A program made the translations under genes and the position numbers. A model generated the notes under the pieces. The model was not told where the DNA came from. It saw only the letters and a program-made list of their open reading frames with translations, and made no database searches. A stretch of 17,705 bases of DNA. Origin: a virus. The DNA is taken from the UHGV virus genome UHGV-0090138, one strand, 5' to 3'. This document shows, piece after piece, positions 2,322-17,705 of the stretch. Positions within the stretch are counted from its first letter, which is position 1; each line of letters begins with the position of its first letter.

Positions 2322-3404
2322 ATGAAAAAATTAACAGTGGCAATTTCTGCTGTAGCTGCATCAGTACTGATGGCGATGTCTGCTCAGGCAGCTGAAATTT
2401 ATAATAAAGACAGTAACAAGCTGGATCTGTACGGGAAAGTTAATGCTAAGCACTACTTCTCCTCTAATGATGCAGATGATGGTGATACTACTTATGCCCG
2501 TCTTGGCTTCAAAGGTGAAACCCAAATCAACGATCAACTGACTGGTTTCGGTCAGTGGGAATATGAATTCAAAGGCAACCGCGCTGAATCTCAAGGTTCC
2601 TCCAAAGACAAAACCCGTCTTGCATTTGCAGGCCTGAAATTCGGTGACTACGGCTCAATCGATTACGGCCGTAACTACGGTGTAGCATACGACATCGGTG
2701 CGTGGACTGACGTTCTGCCAGAATTCGGTGGCGATACCTGGACCCAAACAGATGTATTCATGACTGGTCGCACCACAGGTGTTGCAACTTATCGTAACAA
2801 CGACTTCTTTGGTCTGGTTGATGGCCTGAACTTTGCAGCTCAGTATCAGGGCAAAAATGACCGAAATGAAGTAACTGAAGCTAATGGCGATGGTTTCGGT
2901 TTCTCAACTACTTATGAGTATGAAGGATTCGGCGTGGGTGCAACCTATGCTAAATCTGATCGCACTAATAATCAGGTTATCTACGGTAACAACGGTCTGA
3001 ATGCTTCTGGTCAAAATGCTGAAGTATGGGCAGCTGGTCTGAAATATGATGCGAACAACATCTATCTGGCCACCACCTATTCTGAAACCCAGAACATGAC
3101 TGTTTTTGGTAATAACCATATTGCCAACAAAGCACAAAACTTCGAAGCTGTTGCACAATATCAGTTCGACTTCGGCCTGCGTCCATCCGTTGCTTACCTG
3201 CATTCTAAAGGAAAAGACTTGGGTGTTTGGGGTGATCAGGACCTGGTTGAATATGTTGATGTAGGTGCAACCTATTACTTCAACAAAAATATGTCCACTT
3301 TTGTTGACTACAAAATCAACCTGATTGATAAGAGCGATTTCACGAAAGCATCTGGCGTTGCTACCGATGATATCGTTGCTGTAGGTATGGTTTACCAGTT
3401 CTAA
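2322..3404 (+). CDS. OmpC/OmpF-family outer-membrane porin (prophage moron, NmpC/Lc-like), 360 aa with signal peptide
   Basis: Signal peptide [30 protein letters not shown], porin motifs ([13 protein letters not shown]..., C-terminal ...VAVGMVYQF); on the strand opposite Q and the lysis genes, as for nmpC in DLP12. Confidence 0.85.
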
Positions 3405-3592: not shown

Positions 3593-3976
3593 TTAATTAG
3601 AGTTATTAACAACGATATCCATCTCTAACCGGATATCTAATGCCATTAACATCCCTTCAATTATGCCCTCAGCCTTCTGTAACCTTTTCCCGATATAACC
3701 ATCAGAGCAGCAATGCTTACCTGCCAGTGACATGAATGTCATACCGACTACATAATAATCTACTAATAAATCGTGCAAATCGCTGTTGTTCTTTTTCAGA
3801 CGGGCCATGCACCCGCAAATGATCATCGCGTCATCGTCACAACATTGCGGGCGAGATTTTACTTTTGAAGTAATTAATCCCTTAAAACCGGCGGCAATGG
3901 ACGACCAGGTCACATCTTCATGATTATTAGCCGCCCACGCTCCCCAACGCTCAAGAACCATCTGAATATCACGCAT
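3593..3976 (-). CDS. Q: Late-gene antiterminator Q (QuuD-like), 127 aa
   Basis: [34 protein letters not shown]... recognised as DLP12-type Q; start refined from the ORF-track start (3991) to the MRDIQ methionine. Confidence 0.85.
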
Positions 3977-4061
3977 CAACTTACTCCACAAAAATCAGAC
4001 CAGAACGCCAATTACAAGCAAAAATCAACAAAACAGTATTAGTTGATTGTTATCTCTGACT

Positions 4062-8893: not shown

Positions 8894-9004
8894 ATGCCCT
8901 CCATAGTAACCACAAATAAAAAATACAATATGTACTCATTAAACACAAGCAAAAAATACACATTGTGCATGGATGGTTCCAGTACAGAGCGTAATAATAA
9001 GGAC
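8894..9004. promoter_or_regulatory. OR operator / PR-PRM divergent promoter region
   Basis: 111-bp cro-cI spacer with three related ~15-bp operator-like sites (8923..8937, 8955..8969, 8981..8995) resembling AGTACATAT(C/T)GTA(C/T)T; the same motif recurs at OL. Confidence 0.6.
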
Positions 9005-9664
9005 ATGAAAATGAAATGGTATGAACTGGCTAGATCCAGAATGAAAGAGCTCGGCATAACTCAAGAGAAGTTAGCCGAAGAGCTAGGTATGACGCAGGGT
9101 GGAATTGGACACTGGTTGCGCGGATCTCGTCATCCATCTCTTAGTGATATTGGTGTGGTGTTTAAATACCTTGGTATTGATAACATATCATTCAACCACG
9201 ACGGGACATTTTCACCTGTTGGCGAATACTCATCGGCCCCAGTTAAAAAACAATATGAGTACCCTGTTTTTTCTCATGTTCAGGCTGGGATGTTCTCTCC
9301 AGAACTCAGAACCTTTACCAAAGGCGATGCGGAGAGATTGGTAAGCACAACCAAAAAAGCCAGTGACTCTGCATTCTGGCTTGAGGTTGAAGGTAACTCA
9401 ATGACCGCACCAACAGGTTCCAAACCTAGTTTTCCTGACGGGATGTTAATTCTGGTTGACCCAGAGCAAGCTGTTGAGCCCGGCGATTTCTGCATAGCCA
9501 GACTTGGTGGTGATGAGTTTACCTTCAAGAAACTGATCAGGGATAGCGGTCAGGTGTTTCTACAGCCACTAAACCCACAATACCCAATGATCCCATGCAA
9601 TGAGAGTTGTTCCGTTGTGGGGAAAGTTATCGCTAGTCAGTGGCCTGAAGAGACGTTTGGGTAG
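9005..9664 (+). CDS. cI: CI repressor (N-terminal HTH + C-terminal LexA-like S24 autopeptidase domain), ~219 aa
   Basis: [26 protein letters not shown]; C-terminal [10 protein letters not shown]... and ...FTFKKL (Ser/Lys dyad); the ORF-track start 8894 is rejected because it would leave no operator region; start at ATG 9005 or 9011. Confidence 0.88.
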
Positions 9665-9852: not shown

Positions 9853-10074
9853 ATGAAAAAATCTGCAAAGCACTTTTTCAGCGCTATGGGCTCTATCCTT
9901 GACCTTTGCCCAGCAGGTAGCTACAGCGAGTATCATTCAAATGCTACAGACATCGACCTTATCAACTCAGATTGGGTTAAGGTAGGTAGTTACGTTAGAG
10001 ACGCTGTAACTGATAATGAGCAGAAAAAAATCCCAAAGAAAGCTTCAAACCGCCGCCCCGAGAAATCTTGTTAA
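9853..10074 (+). CDS. Hypothetical small hydrophilic protein, 73 aa (first gene of accessory locus in the rexAB position)
   Basis: ORF-track frame with AGGA RBS 8 nt upstream of the ATG; no recognisable motif; 3' end overlaps the next ORF by 59 nt across an A7 tract. Confidence 0.5.
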   Translation: MKKSAKHFFSAMGSILDLCPAGSYSEYHSNATDIDLINSDWVKVGSYVRDAVTDNEQKKIPKKASNRRPEKSC

Positions 10075-10549
10075 CCAACCAACTCCGTTAGGGCGAGTTC
10101 AAGACGGTAAAACCGAACTGCTTATAAATGAGGTCGCAAAGAACCCTCAAGTTCTTGAGCGCCTCATGGACAGGCCAGATCTAGCTGGCATCATGATGCA
10201 GGTGACTCACACTAGATCAGGGCCACTCCCAGACGCTGACGAATTAGCTAAGTACGAAAGAATATCTCCAGGATTCGCTCGCGAAATAATGGACATGGCT
10301 AAGGCTGAGCAAAAACACAGACACGAGTATTACAAAGCAGGACAGAGGGGAGCAATTTGGCGAGATCGACTCGGACAGATCTTTGCGATGACTTCTGTCT
10401 TTGTTTTCGCAGGAATTGCTTACAAGATGATTCAGCACGAGGCTTATGGCTGGGCTACCGGGCTTCTTGGTGCTGAGTTAGTTGCTTTAACTAGCGTGTT
10501 TATAATTGGAAGAAGAGACAAACCGAATCCAAAGCAAACTAAAAAATGA
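10016..10549 (+). CDS. Small membrane protein, 177 aa (possibly DUF2335-like): basic N-terminus, conserved central motif, two C-terminal transmembrane helices
   Basis: Motif PLPDADELAKYERISPGFAREIMDMAKAEQKHRHEY followed by hydrophobic IFAMTSVFVFAGIAY and WATGLLGAELVALTSVFIIG and basic tail RRDKPNPKQTKK; no convincing RBS before ATG 10016; DUF2335 assignment is from memory. Confidence 0.6.
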   Translation: MSRKKSQRKLQTAAPRNLVNQPTPLGRVQDGKTELLINEVAKNPQVLERLMDRPDLAGIMMQVTHTRSGPLPDADELAKYERISPGFAREIMDMAKAEQKHRHEYYKAGQRGAIWRDRLGQIFAMTSVFVFAGIAYKMIQHEAYGWATGLLGAELVALTSVFIIGRRDKPNPKQTKK

Positions 10550-10884: not shown

Positions 10885-10982
10885 GACCACCCAACCACAT
10901 AAGCTGTGGGATGCAATGCCGAAGCAACCGGCTCAGGAGGAGCTTCGAGATTGCATCGCCAAAGTTTATTCGGGAGGAATCT

Positions 10983-11255
10983 ATGTCCAGAAAAACAGAA
11001 TTTAAAGGCACCGCAGCTTCTCGCCGTAGAGCTCGTCGTGCAAACCTGCAAAGTCAGGAGGCGATCAGCTCTGACAAACTACACAGGCCAACCCCTTCAC
11101 GAGTGGTCTTACAATGCAAACGCAAACCAGTAATGAGAGCAGAAGTAATAACACTGACAACGTTGACCAGAAAATATGAAGGCTCAACTTGTCTTCCAAA
11201 TGTAGCCATTTACGCGGCAGGCTACAGGAAATCCAAACAGCTGACAGCAAGATGA
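10983..11255 (+). CDS. N: N antiterminator (short arginine-rich-motif type, H-19B/933W-like), 90 aa
   Basis: N-terminal ARM MSRKTEFKGTAASRRRARRANLQS and C-terminus ...CLPNVAIYAAGYRKSKQLTAR; GGGAGG RBS 5 nt upstream; start refined from the ORF-track start 10911. Confidence 0.8.
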   Translation: MSRKTEFKGTAASRRRARRANLQSQEAISSDKLHRPTPSRVVLQCKRKPVMRAEVITLTTLTRKYEGSTCLPNVAIYAAGYRKSKQLTAR

Positions 11256-12032: not shown

Positions 12033-12104
12033 GCGCGGCGTTACCGCATACCAATTACGCTTCACTCGAGGCGTTTTTCGTTATGTATAAATAAGGAGCA
12101 CACC

Positions 12105-12269
12105 ATGCAATATGCCATTGCAGGGTGGCCTGTTGCTGGCTGCCCTTCCGAATCTTTACTTGAACGAATCACCCGTAAATTACGTGACGGATGGAAACGC
12201 CTTATCGACATACTTAATCAGCCAGGAGTCCCGAAAAATGGATCAAACAATTATGGCTATCCAGACTAA
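12105..12269 (+). CDS. cIII: CIII (FtsH inhibitor stabilising CII), 54 aa
   Basis: My translation [54 protein letters not shown] matches lambda CIII; AAGGAG RBS 6 nt upstream; below the ORF-track size cutoff. Confidence 0.9.
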   Translation: MQYAIAGWPVAGCPSESLLERITRKLRDGWKRLIDILNQPGVPKNGSNNYGYPD

Positions 12270-12381
12270 ATTCACTATCGCCACTTTTATTGGCGATGAA
12301 AAGATGTTTCGTGAGGCCGTCGACGCTTATAAAAAATGGATATTAATACAGAAACTGAGATCAAGCAAAAGCATTCACTAA
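12238..12381 (+). CDS. kil: Kil (FtsZ-targeting host-killing protein), 47 aa
   Basis: [47 protein letters not shown] matches lambda Kil; overlaps the cIII 3' end in another frame; the ORF-track N-terminal extension from 12112 is rejected. Confidence 0.85.
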
Positions 12382-12456
12382 CCCCCTTTCCTGTTTTCCT
12401 AATCAGCCTGGCATTTCGCGGGCGATATTTTCACAGCCATTTTCAGGAGTTCAGCC

Positions 12457-12753
12457 ATGAACGCTTATTACATTCAGGATCGTCTTGAGGCTCAGAGCTG
12501 GGCGCGTCACTACCAGCAGATCGCCCGTGAAGAGAAAGAGGCAGAACTGGCAGACGACATGGAAAAAGGCCTGCCCCAGCACCTGTTTGAATCGCTATGC
12601 ATCGATCATTTGCAACGCCACGGGGCCAGCAAAAAAGCCATTACCCGTGCGTTTGATGACGATGTTGAGTTTCAGGAGCGCATAGCAGAACACATCCGGT
12701 ACATGGTTGAAACCATTGCTCACCACCAGGTTGATATTGATTCAGAGGTATAA
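12457..12753 (+). CDS. gam: Gam (RecBCD inhibitor), short GamS form, 98 aa
   Basis: [60 protein letters not shown]... matches lambda Gam. Confidence 0.95.
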
Positions 12754-12758
12754 AACGG

Positions 12759-13544
12759 ATGAGTACAGCACTCGCAACGCTGGCTGGGAAGCTGGCTGAA
12801 CGTGTCGGCATGGATTCTGTCGACCCACAGGAACTGATCACCACTCTTCGCCAGACGGCATTTAAAGGTGATGCCAGCGATGCGCAGTTCATCGCATTAC
12901 TGATCGTTGCCAACCAGTACGGCCTTAATCCGTGGACGAAAGAAATTTACGCCTTTCCTGATAAGCAGAATGGCATCGTTCCGGTGGTGAGCGTTGATGG
13001 CTGGTCCCGCATCATCAATGAAAACCAGCAGTTTGATGGCATGGACTTTGAGCAGGACAATGAATCCTGTACATGCCGGATTTACCGCAAGGACCGTAAT
13101 CATCCGATCTGCGTTACCGAGTGGATGGATGAATGCCGCCGCGAACCATTCAAAACCCGCGAAGGCAGAGAAATCACCGGACCGTGGCAGTCGCATCCCA
13201 AACGGATGTTACGGCATAAAGCCATGATTCAGTGTGCCCGTCTGGCCTTCGGATTTGCTGGTATCTATGACAAGGATGAAGCCGAGCGCATTGTCGAAAA
13301 TACTGCATACACTGCAGAACGTCAGCCGGAACGCGACATCACTCCGGTTAACGATGAAACCATGCAGGAGATTAACACTCTGCTGATCGCCCTGGATAAA
13401 ACATGGGATGACGACTTATTGCTGCTCTGTTCCCAGATATTTCGCCGCGACATTCGCGCATCGTCAGAACTGACACAGGCCGAAGCAGTGAAAGCTCTTG
13501 GATTCCTGAAACAGAAAGCCACTGAGCAGAAGGTGGCAGCATGA
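12759..13544 (+). CDS. bet: Bet (Red-beta single-strand annealing protein), 261 aa
   Basis: [66 protein letters not shown]... matches lambda Bet. Confidence 0.97.
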
Positions 13545-14221
13545 CACCGGACATTATCCTGCAGCGTACCGGGATCGACGTGAGAGCTGTCGAACAGGGG
13601 GATGATGCATGGCACAAATTACGGCTCGGCGTCATCACCACTTCAGAAGTTCACAACGTGATAGCAAAGCCCCGATCAGGAAAGAAGTGGCCTGACATGA
13701 AAATGTCCTACTTCCACACCCTGCTAGCTGAGGTTTGCACCGGTGTGGCTCCGGAAGTTAACGCTAAAGCGCTGGCCTGGGGAAAACAGTACGAGAACGA
13801 CGCCAGAACCCTGTTTGAGTTCACTTCCGGCGTAAATGTTATTGAATCCCCGATCATCTATCGCGACGAAAGTATGCGCACCGCCTGCTCTCCCGATGGT
13901 TTATGCAGTGACGGCAATGGCCTTGAGCTGAAATGCCCGTTTACCTCCCGGGATTTCATGAAATTCCGGCTCGGTGGTTTCGAGGCCATAAAGTCGGCTT
14001 ACATGGCCCAGGTGCAGTACAGCATGTGGGTGACGCGAAAAGATGCCTGGTACTTTGCCAACTATGACCCGCGTATGAAGCGTGAAGGCCTGCATTATGT
14101 CGTGATTGAGCGGAATGAAAAGTATATAGCGAGTTTTGACGAGATGGTGCCGGAGTTCATCGAAAAAATGGACGAGGCACTGGCTGAAATTGGTTTTGTA
14201 TTTGGGGAGCAATGGCGATGA
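13541..14221 (+). CDS. exo: Exo (lambda exonuclease, Red-alpha), 226 aa
   Basis: [65 protein letters not shown]... matches lambda Exo; ATGA overlap with the bet stop. Confidence 0.97.
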
Positions 14222-14400
14222 AACATCCTCACGATAATATCCGCGTAGGCACGATCACTTTCGTCTACTCCGTTACAAAGCGAGGCTGGGTATTTACCGG
14301 CCTTTCTGTTATCCGAAATCCCCTGAAAGCACAGCGGCTGGCTGAGGAGATAAATAATAAACGGGGAGCTGTATGCACAAAGCATCTCCCGTTGAGTTAA
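14218..14400 (+). CDS. Lambda orf60a-like protein, 60 aa
   Basis: [60 protein letters not shown]; ATG overlaps the exo stop (ATGA). Confidence 0.8.
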
Positions 14401-14564
14401 GAACGAGTATCGAGATGGCACATAGCCTCGCTCAAATTGGAGTCAGGTTTGTGCCAATACCAGTAGAAACAGACGAAGAATTTCATACGTTAGCCGCATC
14501 CCTTTCACAAAAGCTGGAAATGATGGTGGCGAAAGCAGAAGCAGATGAGAGAGACCAGGTATGA
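14373..14564 (+). CDS. Lambda orf63-like protein, 63 aa
   Basis: [63 protein letters not shown]. Confidence 0.8.
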   Translation: MHKASPVELRTSIEMAHSLAQIGVRFVPIPVETDEEFHTLAASLSQKLEMMVAKAEADERDQV

Positions 14565-14644
14565 CAACCACGGAATGCATTTTTCTGGCAGCGGGCTTCA
14601 TATTCTGTGTGCTTATGCTTGCCGACATGGGACTTGTTCAATGA
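14561..14644 (+). CDS. Tiny hydrophobic ORF, 27 aa, translationally coupled on both sides
   Basis: My translation MTTTECIFLAAGFIFCVLMLADMGLVQ; ATG overlaps the orf63 stop and its TGA overlaps the next ATG (two ATGA junctions). Confidence 0.35.
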   Translation: MTTTECIFLAAGFIFCVLMLADMGLVQ

Positions 14645-14856
14645 CACCTCAGCAGGAAAACGCCCTTCGCAGCATTGCCCGTCAGGCTAATTCTGAAATC
14701 AAAAAAGCCAGACAGCAGTTTCCGGATAAAAACGTCGATGACATTTGCCGTAGCGTACTGAAGAAGCACCGCGAAACGGTAACGCTGATGGGATTCACAC
14801 CGACTCATTTAAGCCTGGCAATCGGCATGTTAAACGGCGTCTTTAAGGAACGATGA
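14641..14856 (+). CDS. Lambda orf61-like protein, 71 aa
   Basis: MTPQQENALRSIARQANSEIKKARQQFPDKNVDDICRSVLKKHRETVTLMGFTPTHLSLAIGMLNGVFKER; start refined from the ORF-track start 14545 to the internal ATG. Confidence 0.7.
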   Translation: MTPQQENALRSIARQANSEIKKARQQFPDKNVDDICRSVLKKHRETVTLMGFTPTHLSLAIGMLNGVFKER

Positions 14857-14879
14857 ACATGAAAAGCAAAATCATCAGG

Positions 14880-14900
14880 GAGCTACAGGCTCCTTTTTTA
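14880..14900 (+). terminator. Weak candidate intrinsic terminator after orf61
   Basis: Short GC stem ggagc-tacag-gctcc followed by tttttt. Confidence 0.35.
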
Positions 14901-14954
14901 TTATTCGCATTCACCCTCAAGCGTATTAACCAACAATTCAGGGATTAATGGAAG

Positions 14955-15176
14955 ATGGCAGACATCATTGATTCAGCATCAGAAATTGAAGAATTACAGC
15001 GCAACACAGCAATAAAAATGCGCCGCCTGAACCACCAGGCTATATCTGCCACTCATTGTTGTGAGTGTGGCGATCCGATAGATGAACGAAGACGCCTGGT
15101 CGTTCAGGGTTGTCGGACTTGTGCAAGTTGCCAGGAGGATCTGGAGCTTATCAGTAAACAGAGAGGTTCGAAGTGA
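14955..15176 (+). CDS. TraR/DksA-family C4 zinc-finger protein (lambda orf73-like), 73 aa
   Basis: Cys-x2-Cys ... Cys-x2-Cys (CCECGDPIDERRRLVVQGCRTCASC), size and motif typical of phage TraR-like proteins. Confidence 0.8.
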   Translation: MADIIDSASEIEELQRNTAIKMRRLNHQAISATHCCECGDPIDERRRLVVQGCRTCASCQEDLELISKQRGSK

Positions 15177-15386
15177 GCGAAATTAACTAGAAGCCAAAGA
15201 TAAAATCATCGCTGAGCAGGAGAAAATCGCTAACGGAGAAAAGACAGTAAGTCAGTATATGAAAACCGCATGATATCATCAGATAAAAATCGGTCGTAAA
15301 GCGAAATATTAATACCAGAACAAACGAGTCGAGGTAAATTATATTACCTCGATAAATTAACTAAAACTTGCCCGCTATATACTATA

Positions 15387-15989
15387 TCATTCAGTATCAT
15401 CACGCGCGGTCTGTGCATATGTCACTACCGCACCTAATATATTAATTTTCTTTTCAACATAGATAATATTATCGTACTCATAATTGCCATACGGATAGCA
15501 AATGCGAATATTCTCATGTAGTTCGGGGTCATCCACCTCAGCTCCAGAACAACTTTTTGAACTACCGGAAGTATACCGATACGGTGCAACATAAGACGAT
15601 GTCTCTCCAGGCAAAAAATAAGTTAGTGTCGTAAGGGGTATAATCAGAAAAAATCCAGCAAATATGCACATCCCTGCATAAACCTTAAGGTATGCTGACA
15701 GACTCTTCCAGCCTCTTTGTTTTACTATCCCCTTCTTAACCCAAAACAGAGATAACAGAAAAGCTATTCCCATGCTAAACAGAATGTAATAGTGGGATAT
15801 ACTCTGATTAAGAAACGTGACCCTGTAGATATCTGCCCGCCACCAGAAGAAAAGGAAAATAAAGATCAGCCCTGAAACTGTCATGCAAATCAAATAAGGA
15901 TACGAATCTTTTTTCATGTTTAGCGCCCATAAAATTTTTCCTGACCCGGACAAATTTACCATCCATTTTTTGCGCAGAAAATAGCTCAT
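15387..15989 (-). CDS. Hypothetical integral membrane protein (3-4 predicted TM helices plus ~80-aa C-terminal soluble domain), up to 200 aa; AT-rich moron on the opposite strand
   Basis: ORF-track frame; hydrophobic segments LICMTVSGLIFIFLFFWW, YYILFSMGIAFLLSLFWV, VYAGMCIFAGFFLIIPLTTLTYF; AT-rich codon usage unlike flanking lambda-like genes; start ambiguous (Met 1, 10 or 25), no clear SD. Confidence 0.6.
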   Translation of the reverse strand: MSYFLRKKWMVNLSGSGKILWALNMKKDSYPYLICMTVSGLIFIFLFFWWRADIYRVTFLNQSISHYYILFSMGIAFLLSLFWVKKGIVKQRGWKSLSAYLKVYAGMCIFAGFFLIIPLTTLTYFLPGETSSYVAPYRYTSGSSKSCSGAEVDDPELHENIRICYPYGNYEYDNIIYVEKKINILGAVVTYAQTARDDTE

Positions 15990-16231
15990 TACTTACTGCA
16001 CAATAATACACAAAATTGCGTAAATTTTTTGCATGGATTTTAGCTCTTTCAGCCGAAATTTAAGGGGTAAATAGCATTTCCTAAAAGCAACTGCACCAAC
16101 CCAACAGAATGGGCTACCGCTTACGTTGAGAGCAAAAAAGTGTATAGCAGCAATGAACAGCATCCTCGCACTGACGAGGATTTCTTTTATCTGAACTCGC
16201 TACGGCGGGTTTTGTTTTATGGAGATGATAA

Positions 16232-16399
16232 ATGCACTTCCGAGTCACAGGTGAATGGAATGGAGAACCATTCAACAGAGTTATCGAAGCCGAGAACATC
16301 AGCGACTGCTATGACCACTGGATGCTGTGGGCGCAGATAGCACATGCAGACGTAACCAATATTCGAATTGAAGAACTGAAAGAACACCAAGCCGCCTGA
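16232..16399 (+). CDS. Small protein (orf55-like) upstream of xis, 55 aa
   Basis: GGAG RBS 7 nt upstream of ATG; my translation MHFRVTGEWNGEPFNRVIEAENISDCYDHWMLWAQIAHADVTNIRIEELKEHQAA; stop codon sits inside the terminator hairpin. Confidence 0.5.
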   Translation: MHFRVTGEWNGEPFNRVIEAENISDCYDHWMLWAQIAHADVTNIRIEELKEHQAA

Positions 16400-16412
16400 T
16401 GGCGGTTTTTTC
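16389..16412 (+). terminator. Rho-independent terminator between the orf55-like ORF and xis
   Basis: gccgcc-tgat-ggcgg stem-loop followed by tttttt. Confidence 0.65.
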
Positions 16413-16438
16413 TTGCGTGTAATTGCGGAGACTTTGCG

Positions 16439-16657
16439 ATGTACTTGACACTTCAGGAGTGGAACGCACGCCAGCGACGCCCAAGAAGCCTTGAAACAGT
16501 TCGTCGATGGGTACGCGAGTGCAGGATATTCCCTCCTCCGGTTAAGGATGGAAGAGAGTATCTGTTCCACGAATCAGCGGTAAAGGTTGACTTAAATCGA
16601 CCAGTAACAGGTAGCCTTTTGAAGAGGATCAGAAATGGGAAGAAGGCGAAGTCATGA
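16439..16657 (+). CDS. xis: Excisionase Xis, 72 aa
   Basis: MYLTLQEWNARQRRPRSLETVRRWVRECRIFPPPVKDGREYLFHESAVKVDLNRPVTGSLLKRIRNGKKAKS matches lambda Xis. Confidence 0.97.
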   Translation: MYLTLQEWNARQRRPRSLETVRRWVRECRIFPPPVKDGREYLFHESAVKVDLNRPVTGSLLKRIRNGKKAKS

Positions 16658-17705
16658 GCGCCGGGATTTACCCCCTAACCTTTATATAAGAAACAATGGA
16701 TATTACTGCTACAGGGACCCAAGGACGGGTAAAGAGTTTGGATTAGGCAGAGACAGGCGAATCGCAATCACTGAAGCCATACAGGCCAACATTGAGTTAT
16801 TTTCAGGACACAAACACAAGCCTCTGACAGCGAGAATCAACAGTGATAATTCCGTTACGTTACATTCATGGCTTGATCGCTACGAAAAAATCCTGGCCAG
16901 CAGAGGAATCAAGCAGAAGACACTCATAAATTACATGAGCAAAATTAAAGCAATAAGGAGGGGTCTGCCTGATGCTCCACTTGAAGACATCACCACAAAA
17001 GAAATTGCGGCAATGCTCAATGGATACATAGACGAGGGCAAGGCGGCGTCAGCCAAGTTAATCAGATCAACACTGAGCGATGCATTCCGAGAGGCAATAG
17101 CTGAAGGCCATATAACAACAAACCCTGTCGCTGCCACTCGCGCAGCAAAATCAGAGGTAAGGAGATCAAGACTTACGGCTGACGAATACCTGAAAATTTA
17201 TCAAGCAGCAGAATCATCACCATGTTGGCTCAGACTTGCAATGGAACTGGCTGTTGTTACCGGGCAACGAGTTGGTGATTTATGCGAAATGAAGTGGTCT
17301 GATATCGTAGATGGATATCTTTATGTCGAGCAAAGCAAAACAGGCGTAAAAATTGCCATCCCAACAGCATTGCATGTTGATGCTCTCGGAATATCAATGA
17401 AGGAAACACTTGATAAATGCAAAGAGATTCTTGGCGGAGAAACCATAATTGCATCTACTCGTCGCGAACCGCTTTCATCCGGCACAGTATCAAGGTATTT
17501 TATGCGCGCACGAAAAGCATCAGGTCTTTCCTTCGAAGGGGATCCGCCTACCTTTCACGAGTTGCGCAGTTTGTCTGCAAGACTCTATGAGAAGCAGATA
17601 AGCGATAAGTTTGCTCAACATCTTCTCGGGCATAAGTCGGACACCATGGCATCACAGTATCGTGATGACAGAGGCAGGGAGTGGGACAAAATTGAAATCA
17701 AATAA
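16635..17705 (+). CDS. int: Tyrosine integrase Int (lambda-type), 356 aa, complete
   Basis: MGRRRSHERRDLPPNLYIRNNGYYCYRDPRTGKEFGLGRDRRIAITEAIQ... through ...LGHKSDTMASQYRDDRGREWDKIEIK matches lambda Int; overlaps the xis 3' end; stop is the last codon of the window. Confidence 0.97.
   Translation: MGRRRSHERRDLPPNLYIRNNGYYCYRDPRTGKEFGLGRDRRIAITEAIQANIELFSGHKHKPLTARINSDNSVTLHSWLDRYEKILASRGIKQKTLINYMSKIKAIRRGLPDAPLEDITTKEIAAMLNGYIDEGKAASAKLIRSTLSDAFREAIAEGHITTNPVAATRAAKSEVRRSRLTADEYLKIYQAAESSPCWLRLAMELAVVTGQRVGDLCEMKWSDIVDGYLYVEQSKTGVKIAIPTALHVDALGISMKETLDKCKEILGGETIIASTRREPLSSGTVSRYFMRARKASGLSFEGDPPTFHELRSLSARLYEKQISDKFAQHLLGHKSDTMASQYRDDRGREWDKIEIK

What the first reader, a model, noticed from the sequence alone, without database searches (positions are those of the whole stretch)
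15177..16231. Opposite-strand AT-rich membrane-protein moron replacing the lambda ea8.5/ea22 segment
Between the TraR-like orf73 and the orf55-like/xis genes, where lambda carries ea22/ea8.5, there is a single minus-strand gene (15387..15989) encoding a ~200-aa integral membrane protein with three or four hydrophobic helices and a Tyr/Cys-rich C-terminal domain (…CYPYGNYEYDNIIYVEKKINILG…). It is flanked by AT-rich non-coding DNA on both sides, including an inverted repeat cgaggtaat/attacctcg (15329..15351) just past its 3' end. Its codon usage is markedly more AT-rich than the lambda-like genes around it, and it is convergent with the PL operon, implying its own promoter and expression in the lysogen. 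This is typical of lysogenic-conversion or defence morons; I do not recognise the protein.
Basis: partly seen in the sequence, partly recalled or inferred. Interest (0 to 1): 0.7.

Follow-up and report, generated by a model that had tools for sequence, protein, structure and literature searches.

The report
Uncharacterised membrane-protein moron of phage 434
A self-contained, AT-rich gene cassette for a small inner-membrane protein of unknown function replaces lambda's ea22/ea8.5 genes in this prophage; the same gene is common cargo in the defence hotspot of P2-like prophages, so it is a good but untested candidate for blocking rival phages.

Summary
A minus-strand ORF (15387..15989) lies in a 973-bp, 35-40% GC segment (15189-16161). 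That segment replaces lambda 29356-30379 (ea8.5 and almost all of ea22) between 98%-identical lambda flanks.

- The real start is almost certainly M25 (ATG at 15917, 176 aa).
- There are three TM helices.
- The C-terminal domain has only two, invariant, cysteines.

What the gene is:
- It is under purifying selection (dN/dS about 0.1-0.17).
- It belongs to a small family restricted to Enterobacterales. It has no Pfam, NCBIfam or PADLOC match and no meaningful structural match.
- It is already present, unstudied, in phages 434, mEp332 and 2B8, and in 981 of 5426 complete E. coli genomes.
- A 51%-identical homologue is listed as the fourth most frequent system ("3 TM") of the P2 gpA-gpQ hotspot in Rousset et al. 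2022. I did not find it among the systems they tested.
- A ~760-bp cassette (upstream region, gene, terminator hairpin) is shared with a P2-hotspot copy.
- Chromosomal orthologues exist in Enterobacter and other genera.

Best guess (about 0.4): a stand-alone inner-membrane protein whose periplasmic beta-barrel blocks genome entry of competing phages. This function is not demonstrated. Interest is moderate.

The parts
15189..16161 (.). Segment that replaces lambda 29356-30379 (ea8.5 and nearly all of ea22). GC about 0.38.
   Evidence: blastn of the window against lambda NC_001416: homology stops at 15188 and resumes at 16162. Composition.
15297..16054 (-). Mobile cassette shared with an E. coli P2-hotspot copy: upstream control region, gene and terminator hairpin.
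   Evidence: 76.5% identity over 762 bp with L021 (NZ_CP028110, between portal and gpA). Salmonella P2 loci L004 and L005 share window 16013/16050 to 15419.
15387..15917 (-). Most likely CDS: 176 aa starting MKKDSYPYL. Three TM helices plus a C-terminal beta domain.
   Evidence: The start is conserved in all 22 homologues. The extension is broken by stop codons in L021. dN/dS is 0.10-0.17. AF2 mean pLDDT is 86.6.
15918..15989 (-). Probably untranslated leader or promoter DNA.
   Evidence: Not conserved as coding sequence: ATG-TAG in L004 and two stops in L021.
15831..15905 (-). TM helix 1 (residues 5-29 of the 176-aa protein).
   Evidence: AF2 helix; Kyte-Doolittle peaks.
15735..15806 (-). TM helix 2 (residues 38-61).
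15615..15710 (-). TM helix 3 (residues 70-101).
15390..15608 (-). C-terminal five-stranded beta domain (residues 104-176), predicted periplasmic. Carries two invariant Cys and the motifs CSGAxVxxPxL and IxICxPxGxY.
15329..15352 (-). Terminator-like hairpin 35 nt downstream of the stop codon, followed by CTCGTTTGTTCT.
   Evidence: It is retained in L021 with one compensatory A-T to G-C change and one mismatch.
15953..15961 (-). Candidate extended -10 promoter element TGGTAAATT. It would place the transcription start about 30 nt upstream of ATG 15917.
   Evidence: TGnTAAATTT is invariant in the window and three P2-hotspot copies (alignment A6). It was read by eye and is not called by the consensus scan.
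16000..16013 (-). TTGT-N6-TTGT direct repeat, annotated as a CII-site consensus in the phage 434 record.
   Evidence: 10-bp-phased TTGT(GCA) repeats are conserved in four loci. The pattern itself is not enriched in the window, 6 found against 4.3 expected.
15993..16163 (-). 56-aa ORF (434 CPT_434_35; 'ORF-22+' of M60848). Probably not a gene.
   Evidence: Annotated. Homology with the P2 copies ends near 16054, and the ORF's start codon lies at the lambda junction.
16162..16189 (+). Plus-strand terminator-like hairpin (tL4 of the 434 record M60848). It marks the right junction with lambda-homologous DNA.
15173..15190 (+). Remnant of the ea22 start: GTGAGCGAAATTAAC followed by TAG. It marks the left junction.
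   Evidence: Sequence, translation, lambda homology ending at 15188.

Best explanation
The region is a self-contained moron cassette of about 760 bp within a 973-bp substitution. It encodes a 176-aa inner-membrane protein.

Predicted topology: the N-terminus is in the cytoplasm and three TM helices follow. The only globular part is a ~75-residue beta-barrel, probably carrying a disulfide, that faces the periplasm together with the conserved TM1-TM2 loop.

Expression: the gene is transcribed from its own upstream region, antisense to the PL operon, and stops at its own hairpin. It can therefore be made when PL is repressed.

Most likely function: the protein needs no partner gene and acts at the cell envelope in competition between phages. 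Its periplasmic domain would interfere with genome entry of superinfecting phages. It could do so by binding the incoming tail-tip, tape-measure or ejection proteins, or by occupying an inner-membrane host factor they need. This is superinfection exclusion in the manner of P22 SieA or HK97 gp15, carried out by an unrelated protein.

Shown here: the cassette anatomy, a real coding gene, the membrane architecture (as a prediction), mobility between lambdoid and P2 accessory loci, and the absence of any known family.

Inferred: topology, disulfide, promoter, expression in the lysogen, and the exclusion function itself.
For: - Junctions with lambda are sharp and the composition is foreign.
- The cassette, including 137 bp upstream and the hairpin, is shared with a P2-hotspot copy.
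- Purifying selection: dN/dS 0.10-0.17.
- AF2 gives three helices plus a beta domain, pLDDT 86.6 for the full protein and 91.2 for the domain.
- The K+R bias fits N-in/C-out. The two Cys are invariant even in the most distant members.
- Cytoplasmic parts are only a few residues, so any recognition must occur in the membrane or periplasm.
- Of 80 IMG/VR viral contigs, 64 have the gene in the lambdoid exo-xis position and 16 have it between the P2 portal and gpA. The same P2 position is seen in Salmonella, Klebsiella and Enterobacter hormaechei prophages.
- That P2 locus is the old/tin defence hotspot. A 51%-identical homologue is its system #4, with 470 occurrences (PMC9122126 Table S5B).
- The gene stays intact in a decayed O157:H7 prophage.
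- Orphan single-gene copies in unrelated chromosomal loci show that it works without a partner.
- 981 of 5426 complete E. coli genomes carry it.
Against: - There is no experimental evidence of any kind. I did not find it among the systems Rousset et al. cloned.
- No PADLOC hit and no homology to P22 SieA (hhalign probability 0.2%).
- The P2 hotspot also carries non-defence cargo such as partition systems and toxins.
- Six Enterobacter species have a syntenic chromosomal orthologue with host-like GC. That pattern suits a cellular envelope function better than variable defence cargo.
- The periplasmic domain is the most conserved part. That argues against an arms race with diverse phage proteins, but it would fit a conserved host target.
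- The promoter is unverified. The upstream TTGT repeats could mean CII-dependent, transient expression rather than expression in the lysogen.
Confidence: 0.4

Rival explanations
1. Host-fitness or lysogenic-conversion factor unrelated to phage exclusion. The protein would be an envelope protein borrowed from Enterobacteriaceae chromosomes that alters envelope physiology. Examples are stress tolerance, signalling at the inner membrane, or immunity to a bacteriocin or contact-dependent toxin acting in the periplasm or membrane. The prophage would carry it because it benefits the lysogen.
For: - Syntenic chromosomal orthologues in six Enterobacter species next to a HAMP-GGDEF gene and an AI-2E transporter, with host-like GC of 0.52.
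- Orphan chromosomal copies in Citrobacter, Pseudescherichia, Klebsiella and Cedecea, none in a prophage.
- Strong conservation of the periplasmic domain.
- The same prophage carries another envelope moron, a porin.
- The P2 hotspot also holds virulence and maintenance cargo.
Against: - In viral contigs the gene is found only in the two accessory loci, one of which is a validated defence hotspot (PMC9122126).
- No similarity to any known immunity or stress family.
- No toxin or partner gene is consistently adjacent.
Confidence: 0.25
2. Abortive-infection type effector. The periplasmic domain senses an incoming phage component or envelope damage. The three-helix membrane part then depolarises or permeabilises the inner membrane and kills or arrests the infected cell.
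For: - Transmembrane proteins in known systems are often suicide effectors (discussion in PMC9122126).
- The gene is single and stand-alone, sits in a defence hotspot, and is AT-rich foreign DNA.
Against: - There is no cytoplasmic sensor domain.
- Only three helices with no evident pore-lining polar face; this is read from the sequence and was not analysed further.
- Stable chromosomal orthologues and 18% prevalence in E. coli suggest low toxicity.
- No known precedent for periplasm-triggered single-protein abortive infection (own knowledge).
Confidence: 0.12
3. A function in the phage's own life cycle. The gene would be switched on by CII (or another regulator binding the TTGT repeats) during establishment of lysogeny. 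It might transiently modify the membrane, lysis timing or secondary infection, rather than serve the established lysogen.
For: - A TTGT-N6-TTGT repeat lies upstream at 16000-16013 and was annotated as a CII consensus by the 434 annotators.
- 10-bp-phased TTGT(GCA) repeats are conserved in four copies.
- It lies in the exo-xis region, whose genes modulate the lysis-lysogeny decision (PMC10789677).
Against: - The pattern is no more frequent than chance in the window.
- The repeats are also conserved in P2-like prophages, which have no lambda-type CII (own knowledge).
- The gene persists intact in a decayed prophage that has lost its immunity region, in O157:H7, and in chromosomes without any phage.
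Confidence: 0.1
4. Not a functional gene: a chance ORF or decaying remnant in AT-rich junk DNA.
For: - No family assignment.
- RefSeq marks one P2 copy as frameshifted.
Against: - dN/dS is 0.10-0.17 with saturated synonymous sites.
- Length and architecture are conserved down to 33-45% identity.
- The AF2 model is confident.
- The 'frameshift' is an artefact of the over-long reference start.
Confidence: 0.02

Closest known systems
Rousset et al. 2022 (Cell Host Microbe, PMC9122126), Table S5B: P2 gpA-gpQ hotspot system #4, '3 TM', no Pfam, 470 occurrences
   Same: Homologous protein: 51% identity over 168 residues, E = 7e-56. Same length, three TM helices, the same CSGA...ICYPxG motifs, single gene.
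   Different: That copy sits in P2-like prophages, whereas this one is in the lambdoid exo-xis region. It is only catalogued there, with no name and no function. I did not find it among the cloned systems in Tables S2A/S2B.
Phage 434 CPT_434_36 'putative membrane protein' (OL657226); also mEp332 and 2B8; RefSeq WP_000120064.1 and WP_000120056.1 'hypothetical protein'
   Same: Same gene in the same position, 98.6-99.6% nucleotide identity over the whole finding.
   Different: The annotated start codons differ (188 aa in 434, 200 aa in RefSeq) from the conserved 176-aa start. No function is attached to any of these records.
P22 SieA (inner-membrane superinfection exclusion protein; Leavitt et al. 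2024, PMC10883804)
   Same: Similar size (164 aa) and a prophage-borne single gene with its own promoter on the opposite strand to its neighbours. [quoted passage not shown] This is the working model proposed here.
   Different: No detectable homology (hhalign probability 0.2%). SieA has no C-terminal beta-barrel that I know of (own knowledge). No exclusion phenotype is known for the present protein.
Lambda Ea22 and Ea8.5 (exo-xis region genes)
   Same: They occupy exactly the same slot between orf73 and the tL4-like hairpin/orf55.
   Different: They are transcribed from PL on the other strand, are soluble proteins, and are unrelated in sequence. Here only 5 codons of ea22 remain.
P2 old and tin (phage exclusion genes of the gpA-gpQ locus)
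   Same: Homologues of the present gene occupy the same hotspot in P2-like prophages.
   Different: Old and Tin are cytoplasmic proteins (own knowledge) and are unrelated in sequence. Only the location is shared.

Membership tests
Moron (independent transcription unit added to a phage genome) | Nucleotide composition distinct from the flanking phage genes | tested here: met
   GC 0.39 (GC3 0.38-0.40) against 0.45-0.52 (GC3 0.41-0.61) in neighbours.
Moron (independent transcription unit added to a phage genome) | Own terminator | tested here: met
   9-bp hairpin plus a T-rich tail 35 nt after the stop codon. Terminator-like by scan, dG -12.9 kcal/mol, z = -3.3. Retained in the P2 copy with one compensatory change. 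Termination itself was not measured.
Moron (independent transcription unit added to a phage genome) | Own promoter, active in the prophage | tested here: inconclusive
   137 bp upstream travels with the gene, and TGnTAAATTT plus the TTGT repeats are conserved. The consensus scan finds no sigma-70 site upstream of the start. No transcription-start data could be mapped to the gene.
Moron (independent transcription unit added to a phage genome) | Lies between genes that are adjacent in related phages (a pure insertion) | tested here: not met
   It is a replacement of ea8.5 and ea22 (973 bp in place of 1024 bp), not a simple insertion.
Uncharacterised '3 TM' family (Rousset hotspot system #4; C-terminal part = phrog_1416) | Sequence homology over the full length | tested here: met
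   51% identity, E = 7e-56. phrog_1416 E = 1.2e-50 on residues 113-200. The profile search finds 61 cluster representatives, all of this architecture.
Uncharacterised '3 TM' family (Rousset hotspot system #4; C-terminal part = phrog_1416) | Three TM helices plus a C-terminal domain with two invariant Cys | tested here: met
P22 SieA-type superinfection exclusion proteins | Homology to one of the SieA sequence types | tested here: not met
   hhalign of the family profile against P22 SieA: probability 0.2%. Only the P22 type was tested.
P22 SieA-type superinfection exclusion proteins | Inner-membrane location | tested here: inconclusive
   Predicted only: three hydrophobic helices and a positive-inside bias.
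P22 SieA-type superinfection exclusion proteins | Blocks DNA injection of superinfecting phage | not testable with these tools
   Needs infection assays.
Known anti-phage defence systems (PADLOC-DB 2.0.0, including PDC candidates) | Match to a model of a known or candidate defence protein | tested here: not met
   No hit at E <= 10 for this protein, and none at E <= 1 for the Salmonella and Klebsiella homologues. It is also unrelated to the '3TM' partner of the Rousset Hydrolase+3TM system, by inspection of the sequence in Table S2A.
Pfam, NCBIfam and solved structures | Any curated family or solved homologue | tested here: not met
   [not shown]

The most novel reading that the evidence does not exclude
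The protein founds a new single-gene anti-phage family that works entirely from the periplasmic face of the inner membrane. It would be shared by two unrelated temperate-phage lineages (the lambdoid exo-xis region and the P2 old/tin hotspot) and derived from a chromosomal Enterobacter envelope protein. Its mechanism would be either a block of the phage DNA conduit or periplasm-triggered membrane collapse. No described system would account for it.
Probability: 0.35. Interest if true: 0.65.

Novelty: new variant of a known kind. Interest (0 to 1): 0.45.

Why it matters
If the protein excludes phages, it explains one of the commonest unassigned cargos of the P2 defence hotspot. It also explains a gene present in about 18% of complete E. 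coli genomes, including O104:H4 and O157:H7 lineages. That would add a membrane or periplasm-acting family that current defence-finding databases miss.

It sits in phage 434, a classical laboratory phage, so the test is simple: a deletion in the lysogen and the cassette on a plasmid.

The work also corrects the start codon used in RefSeq. That over-long start makes at least one intact P2-hotspot copy look like a frameshifted pseudogene.

If the protein is instead an envelope-physiology factor, it is one more ordinary lysogenic-conversion gene.

Tried and rejected
- Family scans (Pfam, NCBIfam, PADLOC, PHROGs): only phrog_1416, of unknown function.
- PDB sequence profile: nothing.
- Exhaustive profile search: only 61 cluster representatives. 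The one long hit, P0124, is a low-complexity repeat protein and was rejected as spurious.
- I suspected the Salmonella P2 loci might represent Rousset's 'Hydrolase + 3TM' or 'three hypothetical proteins' systems, because a small DxDGV-containing ORF lies upstream. I dropped the idea. There were no PADLOC or Pfam hits for the neighbours, the published 3TM partner has an unrelated sequence, and the neighbours are absent from the lambdoid and other P2 copies.
- Homology to P22 SieA: rejected.
- CII-site reading: the pattern is not enriched, so it is kept only as a minor rival.
- Rfam: no RNA family in 14800-16600.
- Literature searches by accession, phage name, locus tags and topic found no study of this gene.
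- A lipoprotein signal was rejected. Cys11 is not preceded by a lipobox and is not conserved (read from the alignment).

Full report
**Observation.**
The minus-strand ORF 15387..15989 (200 aa) is present. The region is compositionally distinct. The gene has GC 0.39, the left spacer (15177-15386) 0.35 and the right spacer (15990-16231) 0.40. The neighbouring lambda-like genes are 0.45-0.52, and GC3 is 0.38-0.40 against 0.41-0.61. The inverted repeat is TCGAGGTAA/TTACCTCGA at 15329-15337 and 15344-15352. On the minus strand it is followed by CTCGTTTGTTCT and is called terminator-like. It folds at -12.9 kcal/mol, better than all 200 shuffles. No Rfam family matches the region.

**Relation to lambda.**
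blastn against lambda NC_001416 shows 98% identity for window 12068-15188 (lambda 33500-30380). It shows 98.7% for window 16162-17705 (lambda 29355-27812), with nothing in between. So 15189-16161 (973 bp) replaces lambda 29356-30379, which is ea8.5 and all of ea22 except its first five codons. Those codons survive as GTGAGCGAAATTAAC-TAG at 15173-15190. The right junction coincides with the plus-strand hairpin annotated tL4 in the old phage 434 record M60848. In 933W-type and P22-like phages the equivalent slot holds same-strand early genes, so an opposite-strand gene here is unusual.

**The gene is already in databases but unstudied.**
- The whole finding is 98.6-99.6% identical to phages 434 (CPT_434_36, 'putative membrane protein'), 2B8 and mEp332.
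- It is 100% identical to lambda-like prophages at ybhC in E. coli 55989, E24377A and O104:H4 strains (WP_000120064.1, 'hypothetical protein').
- With the gene alone as query, 981 of 5426 complete E. coli genomes have a copy, none on a plasmid.
- In O157:H7 it sits intact in a decayed prophage whose int is frameshifted and whose immunity region is lost.
- Literature searches by accession, phage, locus tag and topic found no functional study.

**Start codon and coding status.**
All homologues at 43-78% identity begin at the position of M25 (MKKxSYP...). In Salmonella P2-like loci the upstream frame reads ATG-TAG. In an E. coli P2-hotspot copy the extension has two in-frame stops while the 176-aa ORF is intact. 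RefSeq labels that copy 'frameshifted' for this reason. The CDS is therefore most likely 15387..15917. Pairwise dN/dS is 0.10-0.17 with synonymous sites near saturation, so this is a real, constrained gene. The 56-aa ORF at 15993-16163, annotated in the 434 records, loses conservation beyond about 16054 and starts at the lambda junction. It is probably spurious.

**Protein.**
- AlphaFold2 with 23 sequences gives mean pLDDT 86.6. It shows helices at residues 5-29, 38-61 and 70-101, a short strand in the TM1-TM2 loop, and a five-stranded C-terminal beta domain.
- The domain alone gives pLDDT 91.2.
- Hydropathy shows three peaks.
- K+R residues are concentrated at the N-terminus and in loop 2, not in loop 1. 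By the positive-inside rule this gives N-in/C-out topology. That places the conserved loop 1 and the beta domain together in the periplasm. This is an inference.
- Two cysteines (C123 and C140 of the 176-aa protein) are invariant even in the most divergent members. That fits a periplasmic disulfide, which is again an inference.
- The cytoplasmic parts are only a few residues.
- There is no Pfam, NCBIfam or PADLOC match. PHROGs gives only phrog_1416, of unknown function, on the C-terminal half.

**Family and contexts.**
A profile search of 1.84 billion cluster representatives finds only 61 members. The named ones are all Enterobacterales: Escherichia, Shigella, Salmonella, Klebsiella, Enterobacter, Phytobacter, Citrobacter, Cedecea, Erwinia and Providencia. 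All are labelled 'hypothetical'.

- The Salmonella homologues (70% and 59% identity), the Klebsiella michiganensis homologue and the Enterobacter hormaechei homologue lie in P2-like prophages between the portal gene and gpA.
- Of 80 IMG/VR viral contigs carrying the family, 64 are lambdoid with exo, orf73 and xis around the gene. The other 16 are P2-like with the gene between portal and gpA.
- That P2 locus is the old/tin hotspot of Rousset et al. 2022. Their Table S5B lists, as system #4 (470 occurrences, no Pfam, '3 TM'), a protein 51% identical to ours.
- Its sequence motifs do not occur in their tables of cloned systems, so it appears not to have been tested.
- The family is also chromosomal. 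Six Enterobacter species share a syntenic copy next to a HAMP-GGDEF gene and an AI-2E transporter, with host-like GC of 0.52.
- Single orphan copies lie in unrelated chromosomal loci of Citrobacter portucalensis, Pseudescherichia vulneris, Klebsiella sp. R390 and Cedecea neteri.

**The mobile unit.**
The E. coli P2-hotspot copy (L021) aligns with window 16054..15297 at 76.5% identity. That covers 137 bp upstream of ATG 15917, the gene, and 90 bp downstream including the hairpin. The hairpin keeps its stem through one compensatory A-T to G-C change, with one mismatch. Upstream, four copies share 10-bp-phased TTGT(GCA) repeats (window 16000-16013) and an invariant TGnTAAATTT (TG at 15961-15960, TAAATT at 15958-15953). 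I read the latter as a candidate extended -10 promoter. It would exclude the upstream ATGs from the mRNA. The simple consensus scan finds no canonical promoter there. The CII-type pattern is not enriched in the window. The promoter is therefore unproven.

**Mechanism.**
What is shown:
- A self-contained, horizontally mobile cassette.
- A constrained gene for a predicted three-helix inner-membrane protein.
- A protein whose only globular part is extracytoplasmic.
- Carriage in accessory loci of two unrelated temperate-phage lineages.
- Function without a fixed partner gene.

Recognition can only occur in the membrane or periplasm, and the P2 locus is a validated defence hotspot. The most economical explanation is therefore superinfection exclusion at the genome-entry step. 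[quoted passage not shown] The protein is not homologous to SieA. I put this at about 0.4.

The main rival (0.25) is an envelope or host-fitness function unrelated to phages. It is favoured by the conserved chromosomal orthologues and by the high conservation of the periplasmic domain. Periplasm-triggered abortive infection (0.12) and a CII-linked role in the phage's own cycle (0.1) remain possible. A non-functional ORF is essentially excluded (0.02).

**Novelty and verdict.**
It is not new as a sequence: it is in phage 434, in RefSeq and in Rousset Table S5B. Its function is unknown, and no known family, defence database or structure accounts for it. If it is an exclusion protein, it is a new, non-homologous variant of a known kind of system. 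Interest is moderate. The gene is abundant, sits in a classical laboratory phage and is easily testable, but nothing here is mechanistically surprising yet.

Noticed in passing
window 2322-3404 (+), with AT-rich DNA at 1951-2400: A second opposite-strand moron: a 360-aa Gram-negative porin (PF00267, E = 4e-152). It lies between the Q antiterminator gene (3593-3991, -) and the lysis genes (lysozyme 1021-1518, Rz 650-1036, -). It is preceded by DNA of only 27-30% GC. From memory it looks like the Lc/NmpC-type phage porin.
   Followed up: partly
window 10016-10549 (+): A 177-aa DUF2335 predicted membrane protein lies between the CI-like repressor (8894-9664) and N (10911-11255). That is the position where lambda has rexAB and other phages have sieB or hex.
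   Followed up: no
L021 (NZ_CP028110.1 4499990-4500565): RefSeq marks the P2-hotspot copy as a frameshifted pseudogene. The 176-aa ORF from the conserved start is intact, and the 'frameshift' comes from an over-long reference start. A truncated ead/Ea22-like gene lies just 3' of this copy. That mirrors the ea22 remnant in the window and hints at transfer from a lambdoid exo-xis region into the P2 hotspot.
   Followed up: partly
L027 (JARKOR010000073.1, 'Candidatus Nanosynbacter' MAG): This 3.6-kb contig is 98-100% identical at protein level to the E. coli lambdoid exo, bet and orf73 genes and to this gene. It is almost certainly contamination of the MAG.
   Followed up: partly
L029-L032, L036, L037 (Enterobacter species); L007-L009: Six Enterobacter species carry a syntenic chromosomal orthologue (36-45% identity, GC 0.52 in E. 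mori). It is convergent with a HAMP-GGDEF gene and lies near an AI-2E transporter. In several species it sits directly after a LysR gene. Its cellular role is unknown.
   Followed up: partly
window 15189-15296: 108 bp between the ea22 remnant and the conserved cassette. It matches neither lambda nor the P2 copies and has no long ORF. Its origin is unknown.
   Followed up: no
[not shown]
   Followed up: partly
L001 (phage 434, OL657226, beyond attP): The 434 record annotates an NleC-like type III effector metalloprotease next to attP, outside the part homologous to this window.
   Followed up: no
L013-L015 (Klebsiella michiganensis P2-like hotspot): In the same hotspot as the homologue there is a 790-aa STAND-type NTPase (AAA_16/NB-ARC) with a 279-aa partner. 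It is likely a separate defence system, and no PADLOC model matches it.
   Followed up: no
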